In this document: positions 11,330 to 59,029 of the stretch, in pieces
Position numbering within the stretch: the stretch's first letter is position 1
How the letters are laid out: each line of letters opens with the position of its first letter
Assembly: GCA_964016885.1 (NCBI GenBank)
Contig: OZ024766.1
Coordinates: 18,786,001 to 18,850,000 of the forward strand
From: Eledone cirrhosa
Taxonomy: Eukaryota
DNA: 64,000 nucleotides
Reading direction: 5' to 3'
Position numbers and translations under genes: made by a program
Notes under the pieces: generated by a model
The model's database searches: none
What the model saw: only the letters and a program-made list of their open reading frames with translations
What the model was told of the DNA's origin: nothing

Positions 11330-12568
<1,239 letters not shown>

Positions 12569-16907: not shown

Positions 16908-16947
<40 letters not shown>

Positions 16948-16950
<3 letters not shown>

Positions 16951-17359
16951 TGGCTGCCAACTCGTTTTCGAGTACGGCCACTACTTTATATCCATGTAGG
17001 AGAACCCCTACCGATGCGCTGAATGAGTGTGACTTTTCAGTCCAGCCAGCAACTTGAAAACTCTGGTACAAACACTACACTTGTGACAATTACTGACACA
17101 TAGTGCTGGGCCCATGGTACCATGTGACGACAAGTGCAGAGAGATCTCCAGATATAAAGCAATGCCTGTGCTGTGAAGCTTTTATAGTGAGCAAAGGCAC
17201 TGCACAAAGCCAGTCCCACTCTCTTAACCAAGATGATATTTACCAAAAAGAAGAACAAGTCAACATCATTGGATACCATCAGGGTTGCAGGTGTTATATC
17301 AGAGTTTTCCTTCTCCTAGAATTCTGCCTTGACAAAGGCTAAGGGGTCATCTCTCCCGG
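16948..17359 (+). mobile_element. Dispersed repeat, copy 1 (truncated), flanked by (TA)n
   Basis: Near-identical reverse complement of 28942-29355 and 58469-58882; the same 79/80-aa spurious ORFs appear in all three copies. Confidence 0.9.
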
Positions 17360-17499
17360 ATATATATATATATATACACACATATATATATATATGTAAT
17401 GTAGGATGTGAGTTTTATTGGAGCACAATAAAGCAATGCGTATATGTTGATTTAAAACTTCACTATTCACAAGTGTTTTTTAAGCTTCATATGTCTCCC

Positions 17500-17570
17500 T
17501 ATTTTATCTGATGAGAATGCAGATATCATCCCATGATGATATTTGTTTTTGAAATGCGCATAATAAAATA
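17500..17570 (+). ncRNA. Minimal type-I hammerhead ribozyme
   Basis: TATTTTAT-CTGATGA-GAATGCAGATATCATC-ccat-GATGATATTTGTTTTT-GAAA-TGCGCA-TA-ATAAAATA. It has a perfect 8-bp stem I, intact CUGAUGA and GAAA cores, a stem II pairing at 15 of 16 positions (with G-U), a palindromic stem III (ATGCGCAT) and an AUA cleavage triplet. Confidence 0.85.
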
Positions 17571-17604
17571 CTTGGAACTCTTTTAACCATCTCTTGATCT
17601 TATA

Positions 17605-17605
17605 T

Positions 17606-17652
<47 letters not shown>

Positions 17653-17805
17653 ATATATATGTGTGTGTGTGTGTATATATATGTGTGTGTGTGTGTATAT
17701 ATATGTGTGTGTGTTTGTATATATATATGTGTGTGTGTATATATATATATGTGTGTGTATATATATATATGTGTGTGTATATATATGTGTGTGTGTGTAT
17801 ATATA

Positions 17806-17836
<31 letters not shown>

Positions 17837-17877
17837 GTGTGTGTATGTATATATATATGTGTGTTTGTATATATATA

Positions 17878-17908
<31 letters not shown>

Positions 17909-17947
17909 GTGTGTGTATATATATGTGTGTGTGTGTATATATATATA

Positions 17948-17986
<39 letters not shown>

Positions 17987-18085
17987 ATGTATATATATAT
18001 GTGTGTATGTATATATATATGTGTGTATATATATATATATGTGTGTATATATATATATATGTGTGTGTATATATATATGTGTGTG

Positions 18086-18116
<31 letters not shown>

Positions 18117-18493
18117 ATATATATATGTGTGTGTGTGTATATATATATGTGTGTGTGTATATATATATATATGTGTGTATATATATATGTGTGTATATAT
18201 ATATATATGTGTGTATATATATATGTATGTGTGTATATATATGTATGTGTGTGTGTATATATATATATGTGTGTATATATATGTGTGTATATATATATAT
18301 GTGTGTGTATATATATGTGTGTGTGTATATATATATATGTATGTGTGTATATATATATATGTGTGTGTGTGTATATATATATGAGTGTGTATATATATAT
18401 ATATATGTGTATGTCTATATATATATGTGTGTGTGTATATATATATATATATGTGTGTGTGTATATATATATGTGTGTGTGTGTATATATATA

Positions 18494-18539
<46 letters not shown>

Positions 18540-18580
18540 GTGTGTGTGTGTATATATATATATACTGTATATATACATAT
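17605..18580. repeat. Compound (TA)n(TG)n microsatellite
   Basis: Direct inspection. Confidence 0.95.
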
Positions 18581-18670: not shown

Positions 18671-20127
18671 GTAACAGCCAAGCGCCCTTAAATTTAACAC
18701 CTCCTCTCTCCCACCTCCATCATATCAACAAATATAGCCAGCTACAGAGTTGTCTTCCCTTGACTCCCCCCTTTCTCCCTTAGTTTCTGTATATCTGTAA
18801 ACCTGTAGTGTCACTGCCCATCGCCAGGTGGCGTATGTGTCGCCAGAAGAAGTAATTTTTAAAAAAAAACTTCTACATACTCGGATATACCACTTTTTCA
18901 TATCTGGTAAATATTGTCTCACCTTTCGTTAATTACCCCTTAATTACTACCACTTCCCACCTGTTTAAGACACCCCTGATACTGATCATACCTAGATCGA
19001 TCCCTGCCTGATGCTGCAGCCCCAAATCGATATCGATCTTGTCTGTTTTATATTTATAAACCAATCTGAAATATTTCCCGCCGTTTTTTCTCTCTCGTAT
19101 CTTTGCATCCTCCACGTCCGAGTTTGTCGCCTCATAACTTTTTTATTAATTAATATTTTTTAATTAAATTTTCCTCGGATATATTTCAAACTATGCAGAT
19201 TACGTTGATGAAATTAGGAGGAAAACTGTTAATTTTTCTGAAGGTTATGAGCGATCAAACATGGAGGGTGGTCAGGATTTTGATGTCTTCAAACATGTTA
19301 CAACCTGTTGAACACAGTCCCACTTAAGTGTTAATATATAATGTATGTATATATATAATATATATATAATGTATGTATATATATAATATATATATAATGT
19401 ATATATATATATTATGTATATATATATATAATGTATATATATATAATGTGTATATATATATATATATAATGTATATATATATAATGTGTATATATATATA
19501 TATATAATGTATATATATATAATGTATATATATAATGTATATATATATAATGTGTATATATATATAATGTATATATATATAATGTGTATATATATATAAT
19601 ATATATATATATATAATGTATGTGTATATATATATAATATATATATATATAATGTATATATATATATATAATATTATGTATATATATATATAATGTATAT
19701 ATATATATTATATATATATATAATGTATATATATAATATGTATATATATATATATATATGTGTGTGTCTATGTATATATAATGTGTGTGCGTATGTATAA
19801 GATGTAATTCAAGGGGCCACGTCAAAGAAGCACGTGTCTGAAGAATGCTCAGTCACTTACGTTAATTGCACGAGCAGGTCTTCTTTCTCTGTTGATCGAA
19901 CAACTGTGACACTCTTCGGTGAAAGCGACGGAAGACCGCAACCTGCTCGGACTGGACAAGGGGAGATAACTCGGCTCTAAGCCGGTTCGTTTAGTTTTGC
20001 TGTGAACTGGGCAGGGTTCCTTCGTTTATTACTGGTATTTAGGAGACACTGAAGTCAGTACTGTTCCTGTTGACTGGCCTATGGTGAAGAATACTCCATC
20101 CGTGACCATCCTGTCATATTTAGTCAT

Positions 20128-22563
20128 GGTGTATCTAGGACTACATTATCTAATGTACAGTACAGTAGTTAGTATTAGTGGCTATCAGACATAGTGTATC
20201 TAGGACTACATTATCTAATGTACAGTACAGTAGTTAGTATTAGTGGCTATCAGACATAGTGTATCTAGGACTACATTATCTAATGTACAGTACAGTAGTT
20301 AGTATTAGTGGCTATCAGACATAGTGTATCTAGGACTACATTATCTAATGTACAGTACAGTAGTTAGTATTAGTGGCTATCAGACATAGTATACCTAGGA
20401 CTACATTATCTAATGTACAGTACAGTAGTTAGTATTAGTGGCTATCAGACATAGTGTATCTAGGACTACATTATCTAATGTACAGTACAGTAGTTAGTAT
20501 TAGTGGCTATCAGACATAGTGTATCTAGGACTACATTATCTAATGTACAGTACAGTAGTTAGTATTAGTGGCTATCAGACATAGTGTATCTAGGACTACA
20601 TTATCTAATGTACAGTACAGTAGTTAGTATTAGTGGCTATCAGACATAGTGTATCTAGGACTACATTATCTAATGTACAGTACAGTAGTTAGTATTAGTG
20701 GCTATCAGACATAGTATACCTAGGACTACATTATCTAATGTACAGTACAGTAGTTAGTATTAGTGGCTATCAGACATAGTGTATCTAGGACTACATTATC
20801 TAATGTACAGTACAGTAGTTAGTATTAGTGGCTATCAGACATAGTGTATCTAGGACTACATTATCTAATGTACAGTACAGTAGTTAGTATTAGTGGCTAT
20901 CAGACATAGTGTATCTAGGACTACATTATCTAATGTACAGTACAGTAGTTAGTATTAGTGGCTATCAGACATAGTGTACCTAGGACTACATTATCTAATG
21001 TACAGTACAGTAGTTAGTATTAGTGGCTATCAGACATAGTGTATCTAGGACTACATTATCTAATGTACAGTACAGTAGTTAGTATTAGTGGCTATCAGAC
21101 ATAGTGTATCTAGGACTACATTATCTAATGTACAGTACAGTAGTTAGTATTAGTGGCTATCAGACATAGTGTACCTAGGACTACATTATCTAATGTACAG
21201 TACAGTAGTTAGTATTAGTGGCTATCAGACATAGTATATCTAGGACTACATTATCTAATGTACAGTACAGTAGTTAGTATTAGTGGCTATCAGACATAGT
21301 GTATCTAGGACTACATTATCTAATGTACAGTACAGTAGTTAGTATTAGTGGCTATCAGACATAGTGTATCTAGGACTACATTATCTAATGTACAGTACAG
21401 TAGTTAGTATTGGTGGCTATCAGACATAGTATATCTAGGACTACATTATCTAATGTACAGTACAGTAGTTAGTATTAGTGGCTATCAGACATAGTGTATC
21501 TAGGACTGCATTATCTAATGTACAGTACAGTAGTTAGTATTAGTGGCTATCAGACATAGTATATCTAGGACTACATTATCTAATGTACAGTAGTTAGTAT
21601 TAGTGGCTATCAGACATAGTGTATCTAGGACTACATTATCTAATGTACAGTACAGTAGTTAGTATTAGTGGCTATCAGACATAGTGTATCTAGGACTACA
21701 TTATCTAATGTACAGTACAGTAATTAGTATTAGTGGCTATCAGACATAGTATATATAGGACTACATTATCTAATGTACAGTACAGTAGTTAGTATTAGTG
21801 GCTATCAGACATAGTATATCTAGGAATACATTATCTAATGTACAGTACAGTAGTTAGTATTAGTGGCTATCAGACATAGTGTATCTAGGACTACATTATC
21901 TAATGTACAGTACAGTAATTAGTATTAGTGGCTATCAGACATAGTATATATAGGACTACATTATCTAATGTACAGTACAGTAGTTAGTATTAGTGGCTAT
22001 CAGACATAGTATATCTAGGAATACATTATCTAATGTACAGTACAGTAGTTAGTATTAGTGGCTATCAGACATAGTATATCTAGGAATACATTATCTAATG
22101 TACAGTACAGTAGTTAGTATTAGTGGCTATCAGACATAGTGTATCTAGGACTACATTATCTAATGTACAGTACAGTAGTTAGTATTAGTGGCTATCAGAC
22201 ATAGTATATATAGGACTACCTTATCTAATGTACAGTACAGTAGTTAGTATTAGTGGCTATCTGACATAGTGTATCTAGGACTACATTATCTTATGTACAG
22301 TACAGTAGTTAGTATTAGTGGCTATCAGACATAGTATATCTAGGACTACATTATCTAATGTACAGTACAGTAGTTAGTATTAGTGGCTATCAGACATAGT
22401 GTATCTAGGACTACATTATCTTATGTACAGTACAGTAGTTAGTATTAGTGGCTATCAGACATAGTATATCTAGGACTACATTATCTAATGTACAGTACAG
22501 TAGTTAGTATTAGTGGCTATCAGACATAGTATATCTAGGACTACATTATCTAATGTACAGTAC
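20128..22563 (+). repeat. 65-bp satellite, about 37 units; reverse complement of the 29.7-42.7 kb array
   Basis: Unit GTGTATCTAGGACTACATTATCTAATGTACAGTACAGTAGTTAGTATTAGTGGCTATCAGACATA. Confidence 0.97.
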
Positions 22564-24080: not shown

Positions 24081-24190
24081 ATTTGTACCATTTTTTTTAT
24101 CATTCTTATTGCAGGAGAAACGCGAATCTCCCTGAGAGAGAGAGAGAGAGAAAAACAAAAACAAAAAGAAAACAAAAAAAATAAAACAAA

Positions 24191-26024
24191 ATGGCCGTTA
24201 ACCCGACAGCTTTCCTCAACAGAAACACCAACGCACTTCTAGTAGACATTGATGATGATGATGATGATAGTGGTGGTGGTGGTGGTGGCGGTGGTGGTGA
24301 AATAAAGGGTTCGACCACCGACCGGCTCGGCAGACTGGGCTGTCGCTTCTATAGCAACAGCAACACTGGTGACCCCTCGCCAGACCCCGGCGTGGGCCCG
24401 TTCGGCGACGACGGCGGCGCCGCCAAGTTCGGCTACGCAATTCGCTACCAGCAGCTGCCCCGCCGCCGCCGCCGCCTCCCCCAACACCCTCTTCTGAGTG
24501 AGAAAGCTGGTGGTGGTGGTGGTGGTGGTGGTGATGTTGATGTTGGTGGCGGTGGTGTATACGATGATGATGATGATGATGTTGGTGGTGGTGGTGGTGG
24601 TGGTGGTGTATATGATGATGATGAAGATGGTGGTGGTGGTGTATATGATGAAGATGGTGGTGGTGGTGGTTTGTATGATGATGGTGATGATGATGGTGGT
24701 GGTGGTGGTGGTGCATATAAGGGTTTTGGTGCTATATATTATAATGGTGGAGGTGGTGGTGGTGGTGGTGGTGGTTATGGTGACATCGATGATGTTGGCA
24801 GTGATGATGATGATGATGATGACGATGATGATGATGATGGTGGTGATGGTGAAGTTGGTGGTGGTGTAGGTGGTGTAGGTGGTGGTGGTGGCGGTGTAGG
24901 TGACGTTGAAATGGGCGAATGGCTTAAAAGGGAACTCGACAAGCTTCTCGGCAGGACCAAAGAGGCAGCAACTGGTTCCGGGGACACAGAAACCGGCCAG
25001 CAGCAGCGCCCCCTGGCTGAGAGAGACGCCGGCAGCGTCCTCCGCCACCAGCACCAGCACCAGCGCCACCTGGCCGACACAGACGGCAACGTCCGTGACC
25101 AGCTGCTGCAGCGCCACCTGGCTGACAAAGGCGGCAACGCCCTTGACCAGCTGCTGCAGCGCCACCTGGCTGGCAGAGGCGGCAACGTACATGCCCTGCA
25201 GCAGCAGCGCCACCTGGCTGACAGAGGCGACAACGTACATGCGCTGGAGCAGCGCCACCTGGCTGACAGAGGCGACAACGTACATGCCCAGCTGGAGCAG
25301 CGCCACCTGGCTGACAGAGGCAGCAATGTACATGCCCAGCAGCTGCAGCGCCACCTGGCCGACAGAGGTGGCAACGTACAAGCCCAGCTGCAGCAGCGCC
25401 ACCTGGCCGACAGAGGCGACAACTTACATGCCCAGCTGGAGCAGCGCCACCTGGTCGACAGAGGTGGCAACGTACAAGCCCAGCAGCTGCAGCGCCACCT
25501 GGCCGACAGAGGTGGCAACGTACATGCCCAGCTGCAGCAGCGCCACCTGGCCGACAGAGACGGCAACGTCCGCGACCAGGCTGTATCAAAACGAGCAGCA
25601 GCAGGAGGAGCACCACCAGCTGCTGCGCTAAAAACAACAGCCAAGGGGCAGATGGTGAGGCCGGTGCTGAAGAGCGGCCCAAAGGGAGGGGAGGGGGCGA
25701 AGCAGCAGGAGGCGTCGCGGAAGAGGAGGGGGAGGAGAAACAACAGGGCGCCGGCGGGGGGAGGGGGCAAAAGAGGGGTGGCGTTCGTGACGGGCAACCG
25801 GGATAAGGGGCCGAAGGCGAAGCCCCAGGGCGCTGGGTCGAACGTGGCTCAGACGTGGAAGGGGGCGAAGGCTGTGAGAAGCCAGGGCAGCGGTCCCGAT
25901 GGCGAGGATGGCGTCGCCGAGCGGGGACAGTCAAGCGCTGGCGTGACGAAGGGAGAGGGAGCTACCAAGCCATCCGTGACCACCTCATCTGGAAATTCTT
26001 TACCAAGCATTGATGAACGACTCA
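24191..26024 (+). CDS. CCDC77: CCDC77 orthologue, coding exon 1 (exon probably starts at 24115): Gly/Asp-rich region, 16-aa repeats and a basic region
   Basis: 611 open codons ending ...[10 protein letters not shown], which matches the LPSIDxRL motif that precedes PSRELL in CCDC77. Donor A|GTAAGT at 26025 (phase 1). Acceptor TTTTTTTTATCATTCTTATTGCAG ends at 24114. The 3' end is secure; the start codon is less certain (alternative ATG at 24911). Confidence 0.75.
25002..25580 (+). repeat. Coding 48-bp tandem repeat, 11 units plus one degenerate unit
   Basis: Encodes [16 protein letters not shown]-type units; the frame is preserved throughout (one unit is 15 aa). Confidence 0.9.
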
Positions 26025-26843
26025 GTAAGTTGTACAACACTCGTATATATTTTGTGTGTGTATATATTATATATGTGTGTGTGTATATATATATATATGT
26101 GTGTGTGTAGATGTTTGTGTGTGTATATATATATATATATGTGTGTGTGTAGATGTTTGTGTGTATATATATATATATATGTGTGTGTGTATATATATAT
26201 ATGTGTGTGTGTGTGTATATATATATACATATATGTGTGTATATATATATATATGTGTGTATATATATATGTGTATATATATTTATATGTGTGTATATAT
26301 ATATATATGTGTGTGTGTGTATATATATATATGTGTGTGTGTGTGTATATATATGTGTGTATATATATATGTGTATATATATTTATATGTGTGTATATAT
26401 ATATGTGTGTGTATATATATATATGTGTGTGTGTGTATACATATGTGTGTATATATATATGTGTGTATATATATATGTGTGTGTGGGTGTATATATATAT
26501 GTGTGTGTATAGATGTTTGTGTATATATATATATTATATATATGTGTGTGTATATATATATATGTGTGTAGATGTTTGTGTATATATATATATGTGTGTG
26601 TGTGTGTATATATATATACATATATGTGTGTATATATATATATGTGTGTATATATATATAATATATGTGTGTGTGTGTATATATATATGTGTGTATATAT
26701 ATATATATGTGTGTGTGTAGATGTTTGTGTGTGTATATATATGTGTGTGTATATATATATGTGTGTGTATAGATGTTTGTGTATATATATATATATATGT
26801 GTGTGTGTATATATATATATATGTGTGTAGATGTTTGTGTGTG

Positions 26844-28824: not shown

Positions 28825-29355
28825 CTGGCAACCCCACCAAGGTTTCTTGGTGAGGAGGGTGACTTTGGACATCCTGCAGGACTAAAAACAAAACCTGTCA
28901 AAGGGCAAAGGAGCTCTTAAGAGTCAATGGCCATCCAAAATAACCGGGAGAGATGACCCCTTAGCCTTTGTCAAGGCAGAATTCTAGGAGAGGGAAAACT
29001 CTGATATAACACCTGCAACCCTGATGGTATCCAATGATGTTGACTTGTTCTTCTTTTTGGTAAATATCATCTTGGTTAAGAGAGTGGGACTGGCTTTGTG
29101 CAGTGCCTTTGCTCACTATAAAAGCTTCACGGCACAGGCATTGCTTTATATCAGGAGATCTCTCTGCACTTGTCGTCACATGGTACCATGGGCCCAGCAC
29201 TATGTGTCAATAATTGTCACAGGTGTAGTGTTTGTACCAGAGTTTTCAAGTCGCTGGCTGGACTAAAAAGTCACACTCGTTCAGCGCATCGGTAGGGGTT
29301 CTCCTACATGTATATAAAGTAGTGGCCGTACTCGAAAACGAGTTGGCAGCCACCA
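28825..29355 (-). mobile_element. Dispersed repeat, copy 2
   Basis: Near-identical to 58352-58882 and inverted relative to 16948-17359. Confidence 0.9.
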
Positions 29356-29376
29356 TATATATATATCTATGTCTAG

Positions 29377-29547
<171 letters not shown>

Positions 29548-29684
29548 TGAAAACTACAGCCTACATATCTCCCTCGGATCACACATACCTGCATTTAAAC
29601 CGGTTGAATCCAGCCAGAGTTCTCTCACCTCTTTCTGTTTACCTCTTTAGTATTTACATTACTCTATATATACTATTGTATTTT

Positions 29685-32600
29685 GTCTGATGGCCACTAA
29701 TACTAACTACTGTACTGTACATTAGATAATGTAGTCCTAGATACACTATGTCTGATAGCCACTCATACTAACTACTGTACTGTACATTAGATAATGTAGT
29801 CCTAGATACACTATGTCTGATAGCCACTAATACTAACTACTGTACTGTACATTAGATAATGTAGTCCTAGATACACTATGTCTGATAGCCACTCATACTA
29901 ACTACTGTACTGTACATTAGATAATGTAGTCCTAGATACACTATGTCTGATAGCCACTAATACTAACTACTGTACTGTACATTAGATAATGTAGTCCTAG
30001 ATACACTATGTCTGATAGCCACTCATACTAACTACTGTACTGTACATTAGATAATGTAGTCCTAGATACACTATGTCTGATAGCCACTAATACTAACTAC
30101 TGTACTGTACATTAGATAATGTAGTCCTAGATACACTATGTCTGATAGCCACTAATACTAACTACTGTACTGTACATTAGATAATGTAGTCCTAGATATA
30201 CTATGTCTGATAGCCACTAATACTAACTACTGTACTGTACATTAGATAATGTAGTCCTAGATACACTATGTCTGATAGCCACTAATACTAACTACTGTAC
30301 TGTACATTAGATAATGTAGTCCTAGATACACTATGTCTGATAGCCACTAATACTAACTACTGTACTGTACATTAGATAATGTAGTCCTAGGTATACTATG
30401 TCTGATAGCCACTAATACTAACTACTGTACTGTACATTAGATAATGTAGTCCTAGATACACTATGTCTGATAGCCACTCATACTAACTACTGTACTGTAC
30501 ATTAGATAATGTAGTCCTAGATACACTATGTCTGATAGCCACTAATACTAACTACTGTACTGTACATTAGATAATGTAGTCCTAGATATACTATGTCTGA
30601 TAGCCACTAATACTAACTACTGTACTGTACATTAGATAATGTAGTCCTAGATATACTATGTCTGATAGCCACTAATACTAACTACTGTACTGTACATTAG
30701 ATAATGTAGTCCTAGATATACTATGTCTGATAGCCACTAATACTAACTACTGTACTGTACATTAGATAATGTAGTCCTAGATATACTATGTCTGATAGCC
30801 ACTAATACTAACTACTGTACATTAGATAATGTAGTCCTAGATATACTATGTCTGATAGCCACTAATACTAACTACTGTACATTACATTAGATAATGTAGT
30901 CCTAGATATACTATGTCTGATAGCCACCAATACTAACTACTGTACTGTACATTAGATAATGTAGTCCTAGATACACTATGTCTGATAGCCACTAATACTA
31001 ACTACTGTACTGTACATTAGATAATGTAGTCCTAGATACACTATGTCTGATAGCCACTCATACTAACTACTGTACTGTACATTAGATAATGTAGTCCTAG
31101 ATACACTATGTCTGATAGCCACTAATACTAACTACTGTACTGTACATTAGATAATGTAGTCCTAGATACACTATGTCTGATAGCCACTCATACTAACTAC
31201 TGTACTGTACATTAGATAATGTAGTCCTAGATACACTATGTCTGATAGCCACTAATACTAACTACTGTACTGTACATTAGATAATGTAGTCCTAGATACA
31301 CTATGTCTGATAGCCACTAATACTAACTACTGTACTGTACATTAGATAATGTAGTCCTAGATATACTATGTCTGATAGCCACTAATACTAACTACTGTAC
31401 TGTACATTAGATAATGTAGTCCTAGATACACTATGTCTGATAGCCACTAATACTAACTACTGTACTGTACATTAGATAATGTAGTCCTAGATACACTATG
31501 TCTGATAGCCACTAATACTAACTACTGTACTGTACATTAGATAATGTAGTCCTAGGTATACTATGTCTGATAGCCACTAATACTAACTACTGTACTGTAC
31601 ATTAGATAATGTAGTCCTAGATACACTATGTCTGATAGCCACTCATACTAACTACTGTACTGTACATTAGATAATGTAGTCCTAGATACACTATGTCTGA
31701 TAGCCACTAATACTAACTACTGTACTGTACATTAGATAATGTAGTCCTAGATATACTATGTCTGATAGCCACTAATACTAACTACTGTACTGTACATTAG
31801 ATAATGTAGTCCTAGATATACTATGTCTGATAGCCACTAATACTAACTACTGTACTGTACATTAGATAATGTAGTCCTAGATATACTATGTCTGATAGCC
31901 ACTAATACTAACTACTGTACTGTACATTAGATAATGTAGTCCTAGATATACTATGTCTGATAGCCACTAATACTAACTACTGTACATTAGATAATGTAGT
32001 CCTAGATATACTATGTCTGATAGCCACTAATACTAACTACTGTACATTACATTAGATAATGTAGTCCTAGATATACTATGTCTGATAGCCACCAATACTA
32101 ACTACTGTACTGTACATTAGATAATGTAGTCCTAGATACACTATGTCTGATAGCCACTAATACTAACTACTGTACTGTACATTAGATAATGTAGTCCTAG
32201 ATACACTATGTCTGATAGCCACTAATACTAACTACTGTACTGTACATTAGATTATGTAGTCCTAGATACACTATGTCTGATAGCCACTAATACTAACTAC
32301 TGTACTGTACATTAGATAATGTAGTCCTAGATATACTATGTCTGATAGCCACTAATACTAACTACTGTACTGTACATTAGATAATGTAGTCCTAGATATA
32401 CTATGTCTGATAGCCACTAATACTAACTACTGTACTGTACATTAGATAATGTAGTCCTAGATACACTATGTCTGATAGCCACTGATACTAACTACTGTAC
32501 TGTACATTAGATAATGTAGTCCTAGATATACTATGTCTGATAGCCACTAATACTAACTACTGTACTGTACATTAGATAATGTAGTCCTAGATATACTATG

Positions 32601-35600
32601 TCTGATAGCCACTAATACTAACTGCTGTACTGTACATTAGATAATGTAGTCCTAGATACACTATGTCTGATAGCCACTAATACTAACTACTGTACTGTAC
32701 AGTAGATAATGTAGTCCTAGATACACTATCTCTGATAGCCACTAATACTAACTACTGTACTGTACATTAGATAATGTAGTCCTAGATATACTATGCCTGA
32801 TAGCCACTAATACTAACTGCTGTACTGTACATTAGATAATGTAGTCCTAGATACACTATGTCTGATAGCCACTAATACTAACTACTGTACTGTACAGTAG
32901 ATAATGTAGTCCTAGATACACTATGTCTGATAGCCACTAATACTAACTACTGTACTGTACTGTACATTAGATAATGTAGTCCTAGGTACACTATGTCTGA
33001 TAGCCACTAATACTAACTACTGTACTGTACATTAGATAATGTAGTCCTAGATACACTATGTCTGATAGCCACTAATACTAACTACTGTACTGTACATTAG
33101 ATAATGTAGTCCTAGATACACTATGTCTGATAGCCACTAATACTAACTACTGTACTGTACATTAGATAATGTAGTCCTAGATACACTATGTCTGATAGCC
33201 ACTAATACTAACTACTGTACTGTACATTATATAATGTAGTCCTAGATACACTATGTCTGATAGCCACTAATACTAACTACTGTACTGTACATTAGATAAT
33301 GTAGTCCTAGGTACACTATGTCTGATAGCCACTAATACTAACTACTGTACTGTACATTAGATAATGTAGTCCTAGATACACTATGTCTGATAGCCACTGA
33401 TACTAACTACTATACTGTACATTAGATAATGTAGTCCTAGATATACTATGTCTGATAGCCACTAATACTAACTACTGTACTGTACATTAGATAATGTAGT
33501 CCTAGATACACTATGTCTGATAGCCACTGATACTAACTACTATACTGTACATTAGATAATGTAGTCCTAGATATACTATGTCTGATAGCCACTAATACTA
33601 ACTACTGTACTGTACATTAGATAATGTAGTCCTAGATACACTATGTCTGATAGCCACTAATACTAACTACTGTACTGTACATTAGATAATGTAGTCCTAG
33701 ATACACTATGTCTGATAGCCACTCATACTAACTACTGTACTGTACATTAGATAATGTAGTCCTAGATACACTATGTCTGATAGCCACTAATACTAACTAC
33801 TGTACTGTACATTAGATAATGTAGTCCTAGATACACTATGTCTGATAGCCACTCATACTAACTACTGTACTGTACATTAGATAATGTAGTCCTAGATACA
33901 CTATGTCTGATAGCCACTAATACTAACTACTGTACTGTACATTAGATAATGTAGTCCTAGATACACTATGTCTGATAGCCACTAATACTAACTACTGTAC
34001 TGTACATTAGATAATGTAGTCCTAGATACACTATGTCTGATAGCCACTAATACTAACTACTGTACTGTACATTAGATAATGTAGTCCTAGATATACTATG
34101 TCTGATAGCCACTAATACTAACTACTGTACTGTACATTAGATAATGTAGTCCTAGATACACTATGTCTGATAGCCACTAATACTAACTACTGTACTGTAC
34201 ATTAGATAATGTAGTCCTAGATACACTATGTCTGATAGCCACTAATACTAACTACTGTACTGTACATTAGATAATGTAGTCCTAGGTATACTATGTCTGA
34301 TAGCCACTAATACTAACTACTGTACTGTACATTAGATAATGTAGTCCTAGATACACTATGTCTGATAGCCACTCATACTAACTACTGTACTGTACATTAG
34401 ATAATGTAGTCCTAGATACACTATGTCTGATAGCCACTAATACTAACTACTGTACTGTACATTAGATAATGTAGTCCTAGATATACTATGTCTGATAGCC
34501 ACTAATACTAACTACTGTACTGTACATTAGATAATGTAGTCCTAGATATACTATGTCTGATAGCCACTAATACTAACTACTGTACTGTACATTAGATAAT
34601 GTAGTCCTAGATATACTATGTCTGATAGCCACTAATACTAACTACTGTACTGTACATTAGATAATGTAGTCCTAGATATACTATGTCTGATAGCCACTAA
34701 TACTAACTACTGTACATTAGATAATGTAGTCCTAGATATACTATGTCTGATAGCCACTAATACTAACTACTGTACATTACATTAGATAATGTAGTCCTAG
34801 ATATACTATGTCTGATAGCCACCAATACTAACTACTGTACTGTACATTAGATAATGTAGTCCTAGATACACTATGTCTGATAGCCACTAATACTAACTAC
34901 TGTACTGTACATTAGATAATGTAGTCCTAGATACACTATGTCTGATAGCCACTCATACTAACTACTGTACTGTACATTAGATAATGTAGTCCTAGATACA
35001 CTATGTCTGATAGCCACTAATACTAACTACTGTACTGTACATTAGATAATGTAGTCCTAGATACACTATGTCTGATAGCCACTCATACTAACTACTGTAC
35101 TGTACATTAGATAATGTAGTCCTAGATACACTATGTCTGATAGCCACTAATACTAACTACTGTACTGTACATTAGATAATGTAGTCCTAGATACACTATG
35201 TCTGATAGCCACTAATACTAACTACTGTACTGTACATTAGATAATGTAGTCCTAGATATACTATGTCTGATAGCCACTAATACTAACTACTGTACTGTAC
35301 ATTAGATAATGTAGTCCTAGATACACTATGTCTGATAGCCACTAATACTAACTACTGTACTGTACATTAGATAATGTAGTCCTAGATACACTATGTCTGA
35401 TAGCCACTAATACTAACTACTGTACTGTACATTAGATAATGTAGTCCTAGGTATACTATGTCTGATAGCCACTAATACTAACTACTGTACTGTACATTAG
35501 ATAATGTAGTCCTAGATACACTATGTCTGATAGCCACTCATACTAACTACTGTACTGTACATTAGATAATGTAGTCCTAGATACACTATGTCTGATAGCC

Positions 35601-38600
35601 ACTAATACTAACTACTGTACTGTACATTAGATAATGTAGTCCTAGATATACTATGTCTGATAGCCACTAATACTAACTACTGTACTGTACATTAGATAAT
35701 GTAGTCCTAGATATACTATGTCTGATAGCCACTAATACTAACTACTGTACTGTACATTAGATAATGTAGTCCTAGATATACTATGTCTGATAGCCACTAA
35801 TACTAACTACTGTACTGTACATTAGATAATGTAGTCCTAGATATACTATGTCTGATAGCCACTAATACTAACTACTGTACATTAGATAATGTAGTCCTAG
35901 ATATACTATGTCTGATAGCCACTAATACTAACTACTGTACATTACATTAGATAATGTAGTCCTAGATATACTATGTCTGATAGCCACCAATACTAACTAC
36001 TGTACTGTACATTAGATAATGTAGTCCTAGATACACTATGTCTGATAGCCACTAATACTAACTACTGTACTGTACATTAGATAATGTAGTCCTAGATACA
36101 CTATGTCTGATAGCCACTAATACTAACTACTGTACTGTACATTAGATTATGTAGTCCTAGATACACTATGTCTGATAGCCACTAATACTAACTACTGTAC
36201 TGTACATTAGATAATGTAGTCCTAGATATACTATGTCTGATAGCCACTAATACTAACTACTGTACTGTACATTAGATAATGTAGTCCTAGATATACTATG
36301 TCTGATAGCCACTAATACTAACTACTGTACTGTACATTAGATAATGTAGTCCTAGATACACTATGTCTGATAGCCACTGATACTAACTACTGTACTGTAC
36401 ATTAGATAATGTAGTCCTAGATATACTATGTCTGATAGCCACTAATACTAACTACTGTACTGTACATTAGATAATGTAGTCCTAGATATACTATGTCTGA
36501 TAGCCACTAATACTAACTGCTGTACTGTACATTAGATAATGTAGTCCTAGATACACTATGTCTGATAGCCACTAATACTAACTACTGTACTGTACAGTAG
36601 ATAATGTAGTCCTAGATACACTATCTCTGATAGCCACTAATACTAACTACTGTACTGTACATTAGATAATGTAGTCCTAGATATACTATGCCTGATAGCC
36701 ACTAATACTAACTGCTGTACTGTACATTAGATAATGTAGTCCTAGATACACTATGTCTGATAGCCACTAATACTAACTACTGTACTGTACAGTAGATAAT
36801 GTAGTCCTAGATACACTATGTCTGATAGCCACTAATACTAACTACTGTACTGTACTGTACATTAGATAATGTAGTCCTAGGTACACTATGTCTGATAGCC
36901 ACTAATACTAACTACTGTACTGTACATTAGATAATGTAGTCCTAGATACACTATGTCTGATAGCCACTAATACTAACTACTGTACTGTACATTAGATAAT
37001 GTAGTCCTAGATACACTATGTCTGATAGCCACTAATACTAACTACTGTACTGTACATTAGATAATGTAGTCCTAGATACACTATGTCTGATAGCCACTAA
37101 TACTAACTACTGTACTGTACATTATATAATGTAGTCCTAGATACACTATGTCTGATAGCCACTAATACTAACTACTGTACTGTACATTAGATAATGTAGT
37201 CCTAGGTACACTATGTCTGATAGCCACTAATACTAACTACTGTACTGTACATTAGATAATGTAGTCCTAGATACACTATGTCTGATAGCCACTGATACTA
37301 ACTACTATACTGTACATTAGATAATGTAGTCCTAGATATACTATGTCTGATAGCCACTAATACTAACTACTGTACTGTACATTAGATAATGTAGTCCTAG
37401 ATACACTATGTCTGATAGCCACTGATACTAACTACTATACTGTACATTAGATAATGTAGTCCTAGATATACTATGTCTGATAGCCACTAATACTAACTAC
37501 TGTACTGTACATTAGATAATGTAGTCCTAGATACACTATGTCTGATAGCCACTAATACTAACTACTGTACTGTACATTAGATAATGTAGTCCTAGATACA
37601 CTATGTCTGATAGCCACTCATACTAACTACTGTACTGTACATTAGATAATGTAGTCCTAGATACACTATGTCTGATAGCCACTAATACTAACTACTGTAC
37701 TGTACATTAGATAATGTAGTCCTAGATACACTATGTCTGATAGCCACTCATACTAACTACTGTACTGTACATTAGATAATGTAGTCCTAGATACACTATG
37801 TCTGATAGCCACTAATACTAACTACTGTACTGTACATTAGATAATGTAGTCCTAGATACACTATGTCTGATAGCCACTAATACTAACTACTGTACTGTAC
37901 ATTAGATAATGTAGTCCTAGATATACTATGTCTGATAGCCACTAATACTAACTACTGTACTGTACATTAGATAATGTAGTCCTAGATACACTATGTCTGA
38001 TAGCCACTAATACTAACTACTGTACTGTACATTAGATAATGTAGTCCTAGATACACTATGTCTGATAGCCACTAATACTAACTACTGTACTGTACATTAG
38101 ATAATGTAGTCCTAGGTATACTATGTCTGATAGCCACTAATACTAACTACTGTACTGTACATTAGATAATGTAGTCCTAGATACACTATGTCTGATAGCC
38201 ACTCATACTAACTACTGTACTGTACATTAGATAATGTAGTCCTAGATACACTATGTCTGATAGCCACTAATACTAACTACTGTACTGTACATTAGATAAT
38301 GTAGTCCTAGATATACTATGTCTGATAGCCACTAATACTAACTACTGTACTGTACATTAGATAATGTAGTCCTAGATATACTATGTCTGATAGCCACTAA
38401 TACTAACTACTGTACTGTACATTAGATAATGTAGTCCTAGATATACTATGTCTGATAGCCACTAATACTAACTACTGTACTGTACATTAGATAATGTAGT
38501 CCTAGATATACTATGTCTGATAGCCACTAATACTAACTACTGTACATTAGATAATGTAGTCCTAGATATACTATGTCTGATAGCCACTAATACTAACTAC

Positions 38601-41600
38601 TGTACATTACATTAGATAATGTAGTCCTAGATATACTATGTCTGATAGCCACCAATACTAACTACTGTACTGTACATTAGATAATGTAGTCCTAGATACA
38701 CTATGTCTGATAGCCACTAATACTAACTACTGTACTGTACATTAGATAATGTAGTCCTAGATACACTATGTCTGATAGCCACTAATACTAACTACTGTAC
38801 TGTACATTAGATTATGTAGTCCTAGATACACTATGTCTGATAGCCACTAATACTAACTACTGTACTGTACATTAGATAATGTAGTCCTAGATATACTATG
38901 TCTGATAGCCACTAATACTAACTACTGTACTGTACATTAGATAATGTAGTCCTAGATATACTATGTCTGATAGCCACTAATACTAACTACTGTACTGTAC
39001 ATTAGATAATGTAGTCCTAGATACACTATGTCTGATAGCCACTGATACTAACTACTGTACTGTACATTAGATAATGTAGTCCTAGATATACTATGTCTGA
39101 TAGCCACTAATACTAACTACTGTACTGTACATTAGATAATGTAGTCCTAGATATACTATGTCTGATAGCCACTAATACTAACTGCTGTACTGTACATTAG
39201 ATAATGTAGTCCTAGATACACTATGTCTGATAGCCACTAATACTAACTACTGTACTGTACAGTAGATAATGTAGTCCTAGATACACTATCTCTGATAGCC
39301 ACTAATACTAACTACTGTACTGTACATTAGATAATGTAGTCCTAGATATACTATGCCTGATAGCCACTAATACTAACTGCTGTACTGTACATTAGATAAT
39401 GTAGTCCTAGATACACTATGTCTGATAGCCACTAATACTAACTACTGTACTGTACAGTAGATAATGTAGTCCTAGATACACTATGTCTGATAGCCACTAA
39501 TACTAACTACTGTACTGTACTGTACATTAGATAATGTAGTCCTAGGTACACTATGTCTGATAGCCACTAATACTAACTACTGTACTGTACATTAGATAAT
39601 GTAGTCCTAGATACACTATGTCTGATAGCCACTAATACTAACTACTGTACTGTACATTAGATAATGTAGTCCTAGATACACTATGTCTGATAGCCACTAA
39701 TACTAACTACTGTACTGTACATTAGATAATGTAGTCCTAGATACACTATGTCTGATAGCCACTAATACTAACTACTGTACTGTACATTATATAATGTAGT
39801 CCTAGATACACTATGTCTGATAGCCACTAATACTAACTACTGTACTGTACATTAGATAATGTAGTCCTAGGTACACTATGTCTGATAGCCACTAATACTA
39901 ACTACTGTACTGTACATTAGATAATGTAGTCCTAGATACACTATGTCTGATAGCCACTGATACTAACTACTATACTGTACATTAGATAATGTAGTCCTAG
40001 ATATACTATGTCTGATAGCCACTAATACTAACTACTGTACTGTACATTAGATAATGTAGTCCTAGATACACTATGTCTGATAGCCACTGATACTAACTAC
40101 TATACTGTACATTAGATAATGTAGTCCTAGATATACTATGTCTGATAGCCACTAATACTAACTACTGTACTGTACATTAGATAATGTAGTCCTAGATACA
40201 CTATGTCTGATAGCCACTAATACTAACTACTGTACTGTACATTAGATAATGTAGTCCTAGATACACTATGTCTGATAGCCACTAATACTAACTACTGTAC
40301 TGTACATTAGATTATGTAGTCCTAGATACACTATGTCTGATAGCCACTAATACTAACTACTGTACTGTACATTAGATAATGTAGTCCTAGATATACTATG
40401 TCTGATAGCCACTAATACTAACTACTGTACTGTACATTAGATAATGTAGTCCTAGATATACTATGTCTGATAGCCACTAATACTAACTACTGTACTGTAC
40501 ATTAGATAATGTAGTCCTAGATACACTATGTCTGATAGCCACTGATACTAACTACTGTACTGTACATTAGATAATGTAGTCCTAGATATACTATGTCTGA
40601 TAGCCACTAATACTAACTACTGTACTGTACATTAGATAATGTAGTCCTAGATATACTATGTCTGATAGCCACTAATACTAACTGCTGTACTGTACATTAG
40701 ATAATGTAGTCCTAGATACACTATGTCTGATAGCCACTAATACTAACTACTGTACTGTACAGTAGATAATGTAGTCCTAGATACACTATCTCTGATAGCC
40801 ACTAATACTAACTACTGTACTGTACATTAGATAATGTAGTCCTAGATATACTATGCCTGATAGCCACTAATACTAACTGCTGTACTGTACATTAGATAAT
40901 GTAGTCCTAGATACACTATGTCTGATAGCCACTAATACTAACTACTGTACTGTACAGTAGATAATGTAGTCCTAGATACACTATGTCTGATAGCCACTAA
41001 TACTAACTACTGTACTGTACTGTACATTAGATAATGTAGTCCTAGGTACACTATGTCTGATAGCCACTAATACTAACTACTGTACTGTACATTAGATAAT
41101 GTAGTCCTAGATACACTATGTCTGATAGCCACTAATACTAACTACTGTACTGTACATTAGATAATGTAGTCCTAGATACACTATGTCTGATAGCCACTAA
41201 TACTAACTACTGTACTGTACATTAGATAATGTAGTCCTAGATACACTATGTCTGATAGCCACTAATACTAACTACTGTACTGTACATTATATAATGTAGT
41301 CCTAGATACACTATGTCTGATAGCCACTAATACTAACTACTGTACTGTACATTAGATAATGTAGTCCTAGGTACACTATGTCTGATAGCCACTAATACTA
41401 ACTACTGTACTGTACATTAGATAATGTAGTCCTAGATACACTATGTCTGATAGCCACTGATACTAACTACTATACTGTACATTAGATAATGTAGTCCTAG
41501 ATATACTATGTCTGATAGCCACTAATACTAACTACTGTACTGTACATTAGATAATGTAGTCCTAGATACACTATGTCTGATAGCCACTGATACTAACTAC

Positions 41601-42752
41601 TATACTGTACATTAGATAATGTAGTCCTAGATATACTATGTCTGATAGCCACTAATACTAACTACTGTACTGTACATTAGATAATGTAGTCCTAGATACA
41701 CTATGTCTGATAGCCACTAATACTAACTACTGTACTGTACATTAGATAATGTAGTCCTAGATACACTATGTCTGATAGCCACTAATACTAACTACTGTAC
41801 TGTACATTAGATTATGTAGTCCTAGATACACTATGTCTGATAGCCACTAATACTAACTACTGTACTGTACATTAGATAATGTAGTCCTAGATATACTATG
41901 TCTGATAGCCACTAATACTAACTACTGTACTGTACATTAGATAATGTAGTCCTAGATATACTATGTCTGATAGCCACTAATACTAACTACTGTACTGTAC
42001 ATTAGATAATGTAGTCCTAGATACACTATGTCTGATAGCCACTGATACTAACTACTGTACTGTACATTAGATAATGTAGTCCTAGATATACTATGTCTGA
42101 TAGCCACTAATACTAACTACTGTACTGTACATTAGATAATGTAGTCCTAGATATACTATGTCTGATAGCCACTAATACTAACTGCTGTACTGTACATTAG
42201 ATAATGTAGTCCTAGATACACTATGTCTGATAGCCACTAATACTAACTACTGTACTGTACAGTAGATAATGTAGTCCTAGATACACTATCTCTGATAGCC
42301 ACTAATACTAACTACTGTACTGTACATTAGATAATGTAGTCCTAGATATACTATGCCTGATAGCCACTAATACTAACTGCTGTACTGTACATTAGATAAT
42401 GTAGTCCTAGATACACTATGTCTGATAGCCACTAATACTAACTACTGTACTGTACAGTAGATAATGTAGTCCTAGATACACTATGTCTGATAGCCACTAA
42501 TACTAACTACTGTACTGTACTGTACATTAGATAATGTAGTCCTAGGTACACTATGTCTGATAGCCACTAATACTAACTACTGTACTGTACATTAGATAAT
42601 GTAGTCCTAGATATACTATGTCTGATAGCCACTAATACTAACTACTGTACTGTACTGTACATTAGATAATGTAGTCCTAGGTACACTATGTCTGATAGCC
42701 ACTAATACTAACTACTGTACTGTACATTAGATAATGTAGTCCTAGATACACT
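29685..42752 (-). repeat. 65-bp satellite, about 200 units, with higher-order structure; fills a 13.3-kb intron
   Basis: Unit CTATGTCTGATAGCCACTAATACTAACTACTGTACTGTACATTAGATAATGTAGTCCTAGATACA; variant markers recur at 1165-bp and 1500-bp spacings. Confidence 0.98.
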
Positions 42753-56013: not shown

Positions 56014-56078
56014 TATTTTATCTGAAGAAAGCGTACCAAAGTCTTTTGGTGTCTTTGAAATATATATAACAATAAATA
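56014..56078 (+). ncRNA. Minimal hammerhead motif of the same family as 17500
   Basis: TATTTTAT-CTGAAGA-AAGCGTACCAAA-gtct-TTTGGTGTCTTT-GAAA-TATATA-TA; the 3' strand of stem I is degenerate. Confidence 0.65.
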
Positions 56079-56439
56079 TAGTTTCCATTTATTTAATATC
56101 ATTGTATATATATATATACATATATATAGAGAAAATTGAGGTTGGTAATGGCACATGGAATATATAAGAGACAGAATACTTTTTTGTGAAAAAACATAAT
56201 TTTATAAGGTAAGGAAATAATAAAGGGTATAAAAAATGACCGGTTTCGATGGGTCTGCAAAAGCCATCTTTTCAAATCCAGCTGTAGAAATCAAGCCAAA
56301 TCAGTTCCTGTATGAGCAAGGCATGGTCAGCCGACCAGACACTGCACACAACAGGACAACCCGTCTAACCCATGCTAGCGTGGAAGAACGGACGTAAAAT
56401 GGTGATGATGATGATGATATATACATGTATATATATAAA

Positions 56440-57200
56440 CCTGGTAAGAAATGTTTCATTGAGGCTTTCCCGTCTTTCCACCAACGAGCGCATTTTCAAC
56501 GACCATTCCACTTATTACAATGAAGCTCTTGCTCGAAGTGGATTTGTCGATAAGGTAGCATATACAGAGTACGAAAATAGACCTAGAAGAAATAGATCCC
56601 TGCGCATTTGTTGGTTTAACCCACCATATAATATGGAGGTGGCCACACCATTAGCTAAGATCTTTCTTTCCCTTATTACGAAGCATTTTCCCCCTACACA
56701 TAAATATAGTAAAATTTTTAATAGAAATACTATTAAAATTTCTTACTCTACGACTCCTAACCTTGCACATAACATCACAGCTTCAAATTTAGCTAAACTA
56801 CCTATCCGTAGGAACACGTGCAACCCTATAGTTAGTACTAACTGTAATTATAGGAATCGAGCTGATTGCCCCCTATCCGGGAAATGCCTCTCTAGTAACA
56901 TTGTCTACAAATGTAAGGTTGTAACACCCACGTCCCGTAGGGCCTACATAGGGTTAACCGCCAATAGTTTCAAGCAGCGTCTTTACATGCATACCCATTC
57001 TTTTCGTTACCCTTTAAGAAGGAATATGACGTCACTTTCAGCTTATATCTGGAGTCTAAAAGACAACCACACCCAATATAAGTTACACTGGGAGATCCTA
57101 GCCAGGGCTAGATCGTATAACGGAAATAAAAGACCATGTGACCTCTGCGCCGCTGAGGCCCTGGAAATACTCTACGCCACAGACCACATCTTAAACAAAA
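56440..57200 (+). pseudogene. Penelope-like element ORF C-terminus: RT C-terminal region/linker and GIY-YIG endonuclease
   Basis: Motifs WFNPPY, KHFP, KIFNRNTIKISYS and CPLSGKCL, then NIVYKC...AYIGLT..SFKQR..H..SF and CDLC..E...I. The RT catalytic core is absent. The ORF-track start lies in an unrelated SINE tail. Confidence 0.88.
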
Positions 57201-57377
57201 AATCTGTGTCCCTTTCTGGTAGTGTCCCATTCACTACCAGAAAGGGACACAGCAGTCAACTTGCGGCTACCAAGATGAAAACTGCTATGAAATCCCACAA
57301 TGAATTTTATACTTGAATTTTCAAGTCTCAAATTTTAACTCTTCGTATTATTAATTTTTCTTAATATTAATTAACAT

Positions 57378-57415
57378 TTGAAAAGATGGCTTTTGCAGAC
57401 CCATCGAAACCGGTC
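57378..57415 (+). ncRNA. Degenerate hammerhead in the Penelope-like terminal repeat (mirror copy on the minus strand at 56238-56275)
   Basis: TTGAAAA (in place of CUGANGA)-GATGG..CCATC-GAAA-CCGG-TC. Confidence 0.55.
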
Positions 57416-57625
57416 ATTTTTTATACCCTTTATTATTTCCTTACCTTATAAAATTATATGTTTTTTCACAAAAAAGTATTCTGTCTCTTATATATTCCAT
57501 GTGCCATTACCAACCTCAATTTTCTCTATAACCTTCGCTTTGTGTAGAAAATTACACTTTTCATATATATATATATATATATATACGATATTAACAAATG
57601 GAAACTATATTTATAAAACCATATT

Positions 57626-57690
57626 TATTTCATTATACATATTTCAAGGACACCAAGTTAAATTATGGTGTGCTTTCATCAGATAAAATA
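57626..57690 (-). ncRNA. Minimal type-I hammerhead motif of the same family as 17500
   Basis: The minus strand reads TATTTTAT-CTGATGA-AAGCACACCA-taatttaact-TGGTGTCCTT-GAAA-TATGTA-TA-ATGAAATA; all three stems can form. Confidence 0.78.
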
Positions 57691-58882: not shown

Positions 58883-59029
58883 TATATATATATGTATATC
58901 ATTTTATGTCCGCTTTTCCTTGCTTGCAAGGGTGGGACATATATATATATATATACATACACATATATACATGTAAAGTAACTGTAAAATTGTGATTATC
59001 TCCCCTTGTCTATGCTTGTCATATCTTGT

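What the first reader, a model, noticed from the sequence alone, without database searches (positions are those of the whole stretch)
17500..17570. Textbook minimal hammerhead ribozyme between KDM5 and CCDC77, with structurally conserved relatives
Seen: intact CUGAUGA/GAAA/UH cores, a perfect 8-bp stem I, a long stem II and a palindromic stem III (AUGCGCAU). Relatives at 56014 (+) and 57626-57690 (-) keep the same TATTTTAT stem I and cores but have a stem II that differs from the 17500 copy and still pairs, which suggests structure is conserved over sequence. Known: minimal type-I hammerheads with palindromic stem III are typical of Penelope-like elements and retrozymes and are thought to cleave as dimers. 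Inference: this is a dispersed ribozyme-bearing non-autonomous family. This copy is in sense with CCDC77 and could cleave a transcript crossing it after nt 17562.
Basis: partly seen in the sequence, partly recalled or inferred. Interest (0 to 1): 0.85.

Follow-up and report, generated by a model that had tools for sequence, protein, structure and literature searches.

The report
Octopod Penelope-like element end with hammerhead
This is a leftover end of an octopus jumping gene (a Hydra-type Penelope-like retrotransposon) that has left about 59,000 copies of a hammerhead-shaped, likely self-cutting RNA motif across the genome; such motifs are known, but the copies stop just before two small conserved hairpins that likely tell the element's enzyme where to start copying, which I did not find described.

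Summary
The hammerhead at 17500-17570 is real and far above chance. It is not a non-autonomous retrozyme. It is a solo end (pLTR) of an autonomous Hydra-clade Penelope-like retrotransposon, inserted in (TA)n in an octopod genome.

Two exact patterns count 59,469 copies in 3.0 Gb. Stem II covaries across subfamilies whose proteins are only about 50% identical. Hammerheads in such ends are known, and one octopus Hydra family is in print. This variant differs: AUA cut site, mostly U at 11.1, long stem II with a fixed C-pyrimidine mismatch. A role in cutting CCDC77 RNA is unlikely: no partner copy is near, and this copy is mutated at the conserved C.

The new lead lies beside the ribozyme. Insertions end at two fixed sites, about +50 and +136 after the cut site. 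Each lies a few bases before a hairpin (RCTC-stem-loop-2 nt bulge-GAGY). A matching motif occurs in 33 of 36 5' regions of related metagenome elements, twice in 20. These hairpins likely position reverse transcription starts (untested). The scan had not noted this element before.

The parts
17500..17570 (+). Type I hammerhead motif: 8-bp stem I, CUGAUGA, 36-nt stem II (G-U closing pair, mismatch at pair 4), GAAA, palindrome AUGCGCAU, predicted cut after A17562 (AUA)
   Evidence: 708 genomic copies identical over 52 nt
17442..17609 (+). Solo pLTR of a Hydra-clade Penelope-like element, subfamily A1; 3' end at the first fixed end site (about +47 to +51 after the cut site), stopping just before hairpin 1
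   Evidence: 94% identical (including flanking TA) to the pLTR that ends the ORF-bearing copy L088; end mapping
17397..17440 (-). Inverted piece of the element's tail (about +91 to +138 after the cut site), ending at the second fixed end site; the other end of the same insertion
17610..18560 (.). (TA)n/(TG)n microsatellite target; a shorter (TA)n run flanks the left end at 17360-17396
57626..57690 (-). Intact hammerhead of another subfamily (30-nt stem II, AUAUGUAU), in a pLTR ending 48 nt after the cut site in (TA)n; antisense in a CCDC77 intron
56014..56105 (+). Degenerate hammerhead/pLTR of a third subfamily (28-nt stem II, AUAUAUAU; 3' strand of stem I broken); sense in the same CCDC77 intron
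56441..57214 (+). Truncated Hydra-type ORF end (thumb, cysteine linker, GIY-YIG) of a different family, 34-38% identical to the family A protein
57225..57560 (+). 3' UTR and pLTR of an unrelated Neptune-type element with a U3-A8 core hammerhead (about 57372-57420); its inverted copy lies at 56125-56277 (-)
12407..12565 (-). KDM5 first coding exon (JmjN domain), context only
24115..26030 (+). CCDC77 first coding exon (acceptor AG at 24113-24114, ATG 24191), so an unlocated non-coding exon likely lies upstream; context only, 3' end approximate

Best explanation
The motif is the hammerhead in the end repeat (pLTR) of an autonomous Hydra-clade Penelope-like retrotransposon, left here as a short two-ended insertion in (TA)n; it likely cuts only the element's own RNA, as a dimer or with the element's protein, and is likely inert at this locus. 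Steps. (1) Shown: full elements read pLTR - 5' UTR - about 800-aa RT + GIY-YIG ORF - 3' UTR - pLTR, unit 3,334 nt from cut site to cut site. (2) Shown: the hammerhead fold is kept with compensatory changes across subfamilies. (3) Inferred from literature: the 8-nt palindrome pairs between two copies in a tandem transcript to complete stem III. (4) Shown: integrated ends do not fall at the ribozyme cut site but at two fixed sites downstream, so the template was uncut or religated there (inferred). (5) Shown: each end site lies a few bases 5' of a conserved bulged hairpin. (6) Inferred: the protein docks on these hairpins and starts cDNA on the two nicked target strands, which would give one short end and one tailed end, as here.
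For: ORF linkage: L031 (open frame of 800 aa from the ATG), L042 (inverted pLTR, pLTR, ORF, pLTR), L037, L043. For the window's own subfamily: L073 (pLTR then ATG), L083, L088, L077. Hydra motifs RW, DKT, CxCx5C, CxxC..E..N..CxH, no CCHH (against PMC8557442 section 11). Copy number 54,598 + 4,871, reversed-pattern control 0. Covariation: 9 of 10 stem II pairs with double changes, 38 double-changed cells against 15.3 shuffled, 0 of 500 shuffles as high, slid controls 33-59% paired against 90%. Proteins of subfamilies A and D 50% identical. Stem III monomer costs 3.5 kcal/mol, self-duplex -10.5. Ends: 49 of 85 family A copies at +53, 32 at +135-138, 1 at +12, 3 run on into the ORF. Literature: PMC4209133, PMC11167929.
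Against: No cleavage or binding was measured. Rfam lists no hammerhead model at this locus, and the 800-aa ORF has no Pfam or PDB sequence match, so RT/endonuclease identity and clade rest on motifs read against the paper, not on a tree with named references. The usual 10.1-11.1 pair is A-U or G-U (62 of 75 distinct stem II sequences, a sample drawn mostly with a U-requiring pattern), which may slow cleavage (recalled). In the one PLE tested in vitro, hammerhead mutants did not affect insertion, so the ribozyme's role is open. The loci are not a random sample: subfamily A1 was oversampled.
Confidence: 0.9

Rival explanations
1. Non-autonomous non-LTR retrozyme family: short hammerhead repeats that spread as small circular RNAs using another element's RT.
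For: Most fetched copies are short and lack an ORF nearby. Type I hammerheads with a palindromic stem III occur in retrozymes.
Against: No 150-450 nt head-to-tail units among the fetched loci. The same subfamily is contiguous with RT/EN frames. 5' ends are scattered and 3' ends fixed, as for 5'-truncated copies of the autonomous element.
Confidence: 0.04
2. The 17500 copy has been co-opted to cut the CCDC77 pre-mRNA, or a transcript between KDM5 and CCDC77, after nt 17562.
For: Sense to CCDC77. The first coding exon has a splice acceptor, so a 5' intron likely exists and could span 17500. Core and stem I are intact.
Against: One copy per about 50 kb genome-wide: 1.3 expected in 64 kb, 3 seen (Poisson about 0.14, hand calculation). 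No cis partner. C-to-U at the family-conserved stem II position. Single PLE hammerheads showed no cleavage in vitro or needed the element's protein.
Confidence: 0.06
3. For the twin hairpins: they are not RT docking sites but DNA-level endonuclease or promoter sites, or translation elements of the 5' UTR, and the fixed ends are set by TA microhomology alone.
For: Both end sites are TA-like, so element and target share letters (35 of 107 ends overlap the hairpin's first base). The outer arms are nearly invariant, as a protein site would be. The D. virilis tail was reported as needed for endonuclease recognition.
Against: The inner stem covaries (C-G 32, U-A 24 of 67 at the first inner pair; 97 of 135 paired against 67 shuffled, maximum 83), only in the 2-nt bulge register, with 5-30 nt between the arms. 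This fits a single-stranded fold. Other TA-rich sites in these AT-rich UTRs are rarely used as ends.
Confidence: 0.35

Closest known systems
Hydra clade of Penelope-like elements (Craig et al. 2021, PMC8557442), including Hydra-1_Obim of Octopus bimaculoides
   Same: C-terminal GIY-YIG ORF with RW, DKT, CxCx5C, CxxC and CxH motifs; (TA)n targets; hammerhead near the 3' end; inverted truncated copies; tail at one end.
   Different: All 26 Hydra hammerhead rows in File S2 have stem III AC...GU and a GUH site; this family has AU...AU and AUA, a longer stem II and the pair-4 mismatch. Hydra-1_Obim has another hammerhead. The tail is about 85-90 nt, not 30-40. Elements are about 3.3 kb, against under 3 kb for most. 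No hairpins are mentioned in that paper's main text.
[quoted passage not shown]
   Same: Type I, palindromic short stem III, predicted dimer, in pLTRs, many solo and opposite-strand pairs, subfamilies with compensatory changes.
   Different: Described there: stem II 7-8 bp, stem I 4-5 bp, conserved G10.1-C11.1, a bulged base before stem II, 2,000-9,000 copies per genome. Here: stem I 8 bp, stem II up to about 15 bp, mostly U11.1, no bulge, at least 59,469 copies.
PAc, Poseidon element of Anolis carolinensis (Frangieh et al. 2024, PMC11167929)
   Same: Two internal RT start sites downstream of the hammerhead that define the tail; AT-rich targets; RNA 3' of the start site is needed.
   Different: Another clade. 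Starts lie in an AC-rich stem-loop inside the ORF; here they lie in the 5' UTR, each a few bases before its own copy of a repeated bulged hairpin.
Non-LTR retrozymes of animals (Cervera and de la Pena 2020, PMC7229834)
   Same: Type I hammerheads at high copy number (axolotl up to 120,000).
   Different: Those are ORF-free tandem repeats of 150-450 bp; this is the end of a protein-coding element.

Membership tests
Type I hammerhead ribozyme | CUGANGA, GAAA and UH core joined by three stems, ends in stem I | tested here: met
Type I hammerhead ribozyme | Stems supported by compensatory change | tested here: met
   stem II 9 of 10 pairs with double changes; stem I only one-sided changes; stem III one double change
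Type I hammerhead ribozyme | Conserved G10.1-C11.1 pair | tested here: not met
   G-U in this copy; 54,598 copies with U11.1 against 4,871 with another base, mostly C in the listed rows
Type I hammerhead ribozyme | Self-cleavage at the predicted site | not testable with these tools
   needs in vitro assay
Penelope-like element, EN+ | Single ORF with RT (YRDD) and C-terminal GIY-YIG between pLTRs, inverted truncated copy, tail at one end | tested here: met
   domains read from motifs, no Pfam hit
Hydra clade | DKT in place of DKG; RWK-like N-terminal motif | tested here: met
   DKT in L031, L043, L036, L252; RWT, RWI, RWR rather than RWK
Hydra clade | CxCx5C linker, no CCHH in the endonuclease, CxxC and CxH around E and N | tested here: met
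Hydra clade | Insertion into (TA)n | tested here: met
   171 of 176 copies end in a TA or CA microsatellite within 260 nt of the cut site
Hydra clade | Phylogenetic grouping with named Hydra RTs | not tested
   named references seen only in the supplement and compared by eye
Neptune / Nematis / Poseidon | DKG and CCHH motifs | tested here: not met
   absent in family A; present in the unrelated family L249-L251
Non-LTR retrozyme | ORF-free tandem repeats of 150-450 bp | tested here: not met
   unit 3,334 nt with ORF
Non-LTR retrozyme | Abundant small circular RNAs | not testable with these tools
   no RNA holder listed

The most novel reading that the evidence does not exclude
Hydra-clade Penelope-like elements carry twin cis-acting RNA hairpins (RCTC - variable covarying stem-loop - 2-nt bulge - GAGY) between the hammerhead and the start codon. 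Each docks one subunit of an RT-endonuclease dimer and fixes a reverse transcription start a few bases upstream. This would explain the long-noted pattern of one short end and one tailed end, and would define a portable RNA address of about 25 nt for internal target-primed integration into (TA)n.
Probability: 0.5. Interest if true: 0.72.

Novelty: new variant of a known kind. Interest (0 to 1): 0.46.

Why it matters
The hammerhead itself is an expected part of a known element class and probably does nothing for KDM5 or CCDC77. Two things add value. First, this is a very large natural series of one hammerhead variant (AUA site, U11.1, fixed C-pyrimidine mismatch), and two further core variants sit in the same genome (U3-A8, 2,041 copies; U4C, 4,581 copies). 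Second, how Penelope-like RTs choose their two internal start sites is an open mechanistic question. A short repeated hairpin beside both sites, conserved over 28-40% protein identity, makes that directly testable in the published in vitro assay.

Tried and rejected
Rfam: the whole-window scan listed only miRNA-model hits on microsatellites among the 150 of 181 rows shown; no hammerhead at the locus; nothing at gathering score in 6 of the 80 metagenome loci. Pfam and PDB sequence searches gave nothing for the ORF. Repeat finding was swamped by a 65-bp satellite. Expression: no RNA holder listed. Laying 4 runs on the CCDC77 acceptor region gave one 346-nt contig piece and no joints, so the CCDC77 start site is unknown; the CpG scan shows several candidate patches. 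My first guess of Neptune clade was dropped after motif reading. The idea that 56014 and 57690 are two ends of one element was rejected: they are different subfamilies around a nested mix. The idea that insertions end at the ribozyme cut site was rejected. Second-hairpin test in subfamily C: 0 of 3 distinct places ran on into the element, so it is untested there. The window's U3-A8 family lacks the hairpins and has a 36-nt tail; it is Neptune-type, so the hairpin is not general to PLEs. Lunse et al. was not held. L253 was fetched and not analysed.

Full report
OBSERVATION. The motif is at the stated place: stem I 17500-17507 with 17563-17570, CUGAUGA, a 36-nt stem II, GAAA, the palindrome AUGCGCAU and a predicted cut after A17562 (hammerhead numbering and the NUH rule are recalled). 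A generic descriptor finds 2 loci in the window against a mean of 0.01 in 100 simulations; fold z -2.5. The relative at 57690 (-) is intact; the one at 56014 (+) has a broken stem I. Rfam does not list a hammerhead here.

HOST AND CONTEXT. A CCDC77 exon is 92% identical to Octopus sinensis, 90% to O. bimaculoides and 86% to cuttlefish, so the host is an octopod by inference. The assembly has 2,996 Mb. KDM5 starts at 12565 on the minus strand. CCDC77 exons lie on plus from 24115 to 60915. Its first coding exon follows a splice acceptor, so a non-coding exon likely lies upstream, but its position is unknown (searches gave no information). The 17500 copy is therefore intergenic or in a 5' intron; the other two lie in the intron between 53872 and 57840.

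COPY NUMBER. One exact pattern gives 54,598 matches with U before GAAA and another gives 4,871 with a different base there; reversed-pattern controls are 0. 708 copies are identical to the window copy over 52 nt. One copy per about 50 kb makes three in this window unremarkable (1.3 expected; hand calculation).

WHAT CARRIES IT. Fetched regions show the hammerhead in both end repeats of a protein-coding element. L042 reads inverted pLTR, pLTR, ORF, pLTR, with 3,334 nt between cut sites, and L031 has an open frame of 800 aa from the ATG. The window's own subfamily is joined to the ORF start in L073 and to RT and endonuclease parts in L083, L088 and L077. The protein has YRDD, RW, DKT, CxCx5C, a GIY-YIG without CCHH, and CxxC..E..N..CxH. 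These match the definition of the Hydra clade in Craig et al. (PMC8557442, section 11), whose supplement lists an Octopus bimaculoides family with a different hammerhead. Pfam and PDB gave no match; the 18 homologues found were unnamed, 29-38% identical. Clade membership is by motif, not by tree.

ANATOMY OF THIS INSERTION. Sense pLTR 17442-17609 plus an inverted tail piece 17397-17440, with (TA)n on both sides. It carries no ORF and stops before the first hairpin described below, so it is likely a dead-end product.

THE RIBOZYME VARIANT. Among 138 copies from the loci then in hand (75 distinct stem II sequences, 16 clusters; not a random sample), stem II pairs 1-3 and 5-7 are paired in 69-73 of 75, and pair 4 in 0 of 75 (C-C 47, C-U 23). 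On 16 hand-picked representatives, 9 of 10 stem II pairs show double changes; 38 cells against 15.3 shuffled, 0 of 500; slid controls are far lower. The 'further pair types' measure was not above shuffles (162 of 500), stem I shows only one-sided changes, and relatedness is not controlled. The subfamilies' proteins differ deeply (A against D 50%; A against B 44-61% by segment). The 5' base of the mismatch is C in 52,093 of 54,598 copies; the window copy has U, likely CpG decay. Only 20 genomic matches change both 15.2 and 16.2. Stem III 8-mers are fully self-pairing (G-U allowed) in 131 of 138 copies. A monomer stem III costs 3.5 kcal/mol, while the self-duplex gives -10.5, consistent with the dimer model (PMC4209133; review PMC6765202). 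All 26 Hydra rows of Craig's File S2 and 39 of 40 hammerheads found in metagenome relatives use AC...GU, so the AUA form is uncommon but not unique.

WHERE COPIES END. Of 85 family A copies, 49 end at +53 and 32 at +135-138 after the cut site (L042 numbering), 1 at +12, and 3 run into the ORF; 5' ends are scattered, with 12 at a palindrome at -124/-125. By my reading of that table, 18 of 20 loci holding copies on both strands have one end of each type. The shorter subfamilies show the same two classes. This parallels the two RT start sites and tail of PAc (PMC11167929), where uncut RNA is the main substrate.

TWIN HAIRPINS. Just 3' of each end site lies RCTC - stem-loop - 2-nt bulge - GAGY. 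It was found near +50-65 in 51 of 62 distinct copies with 100 nt or more before the next (TA)n, and a second one at +141-149 in 3 copies that continue to the ATG. The gap from last matched base to hairpin was -4 to +9 nt in 96 of 107 short-ended copies and 3-9 nt in 30 of 33 long-ended copies; 31 of 171 were not scored. I predicted the second hairpin for subfamily D before searching: 1 of 20 fetched loci continued into the element and showed it, followed by the ATG (L145). Subfamily C gave no continuing copy. A separate Hydra family with a U4C core (4,581 copies) has a hairpin at +52 and short ends at +43-47. In 80 metagenome loci with related ORFs (28-40% identity), a descriptor that does not ask for inner pairing hit 33 of 36 5' regions (twice in 20, spacing 43-79 nt), against 3 of 36 antisense and 8 of 422 ORF windows, and 26 of 62 3' regions against 4 antisense. 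Inner pairs covary: 97 of 135 against 67 shuffled (maximum 83 in 5,000), and only with a 2-nt bulge. A stricter descriptor hit 16 of 37. Some of these loci are near-duplicates. Three ends in three loci could be tied to their own 5' UTR: gaps 3, 3 and 8 nt. By eye the same hairpin is in Craig's consensus sequences Hydra-2_Amil, Hydra-1_Ajap (twice) and Hydra-2_Ajap, and imperfect in Hydra-1_Crog and Hydra-1_Obim. It is absent from a Neptune-type family in this window. Function is inferred only.

MECHANISM AND ODDS. Identity as a Hydra-type pLTR: 0.9. Hammerhead active in the element's own RNA as a dimer or with protein: about 0.7 (inferred). Meaningful cutting of CCDC77 RNA: about 0.06. Hairpins as RT docking and start-positioning elements: about 0.5; a DNA-level or translational role remains possible.

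LITERATURE SEEN. PMC4209133: parts 1-2 of 4. PMC8557442: passages, section 11, supplement parts 2, 3, 52, 53 of 59 and term searches. PMC11167929: parts 1-2 of 4 and a term search of 3 text supplements with no hits; figures not seen. PMC6765202, PMC7229834, PMC13282606: passages (the last has no 'ribozyme' or 'Hydra' in its main text). Lunse et al.: not held. 'Not found in print' rests on searches of an open-access library; Repbase, subscription papers and unread supplements may hold it. Five look-ups of earlier scan findings showed nothing on this element or genome, only PLE hammerheads in other genomes.

VERDICT. Real feature; new variant of a known kind; interest 0.46, carried mostly by the hairpin lead.

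Noticed in passing
window 57372-57420 (+) and 56233-56270 (-); L249-L251: Neptune-type PLE family with a U3-A8 core hammerhead (palindrome ACCGGU), 2,041 exact-pattern copies, two ends at about +110 and +146, no RCTC hairpin.
   Followed up: partly
L036 6400-6760, L120, L243-L248: Another Hydra family with a U4C core hammerhead (CCGAAGA, palindrome ACAAUUGU), 4,581 copies, with the bulged hairpins and apparently three end classes near +45, +147 and +206.
   Followed up: partly
window 17442; family A copies: 12 of 85 5' junctions fall at a CATATG palindrome 124-125 nt before the cut site, several as fold-backs; possible template-switch hot spot.
   Followed up: partly
window 12565 (-) and 24191 (+): KDM5 and CCDC77 are head-to-head here; I recall the same arrangement for human KDM5A/CCDC77 (recalled, not checked).
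   Followed up: no
window 24185-26107: CCDC77 first coding exon is expanded by Gly/Asp tracts and a 13-14 aa repeat ([15 protein letters not shown]), about 615 aa against about 260 aa in O. sinensis.
   Followed up: no
window 20100-22560 (-) and 29580-42700 (+): 65-bp satellite, about 200 copies at 98-99% identity in a CCDC77 intron, with an inverted block upstream of the first coding exon.
   Followed up: no
window 16943-17340, 28964-29411, 58491-58900: Three copies of a roughly 450-bp dispersed repeat, 95% identical to a copy in L028; unclassified.
   Followed up: no
L206: A metagenome Hydra-type element has a hairpin whose inner stem-loop is nearly identical to hairpin 1 of octopod family A despite 37% protein identity.
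   Followed up: no
L097 +: A further hammerhead-like core with palindrome ACAAUUGU and a different stem II, family not examined.
   Followed up: no
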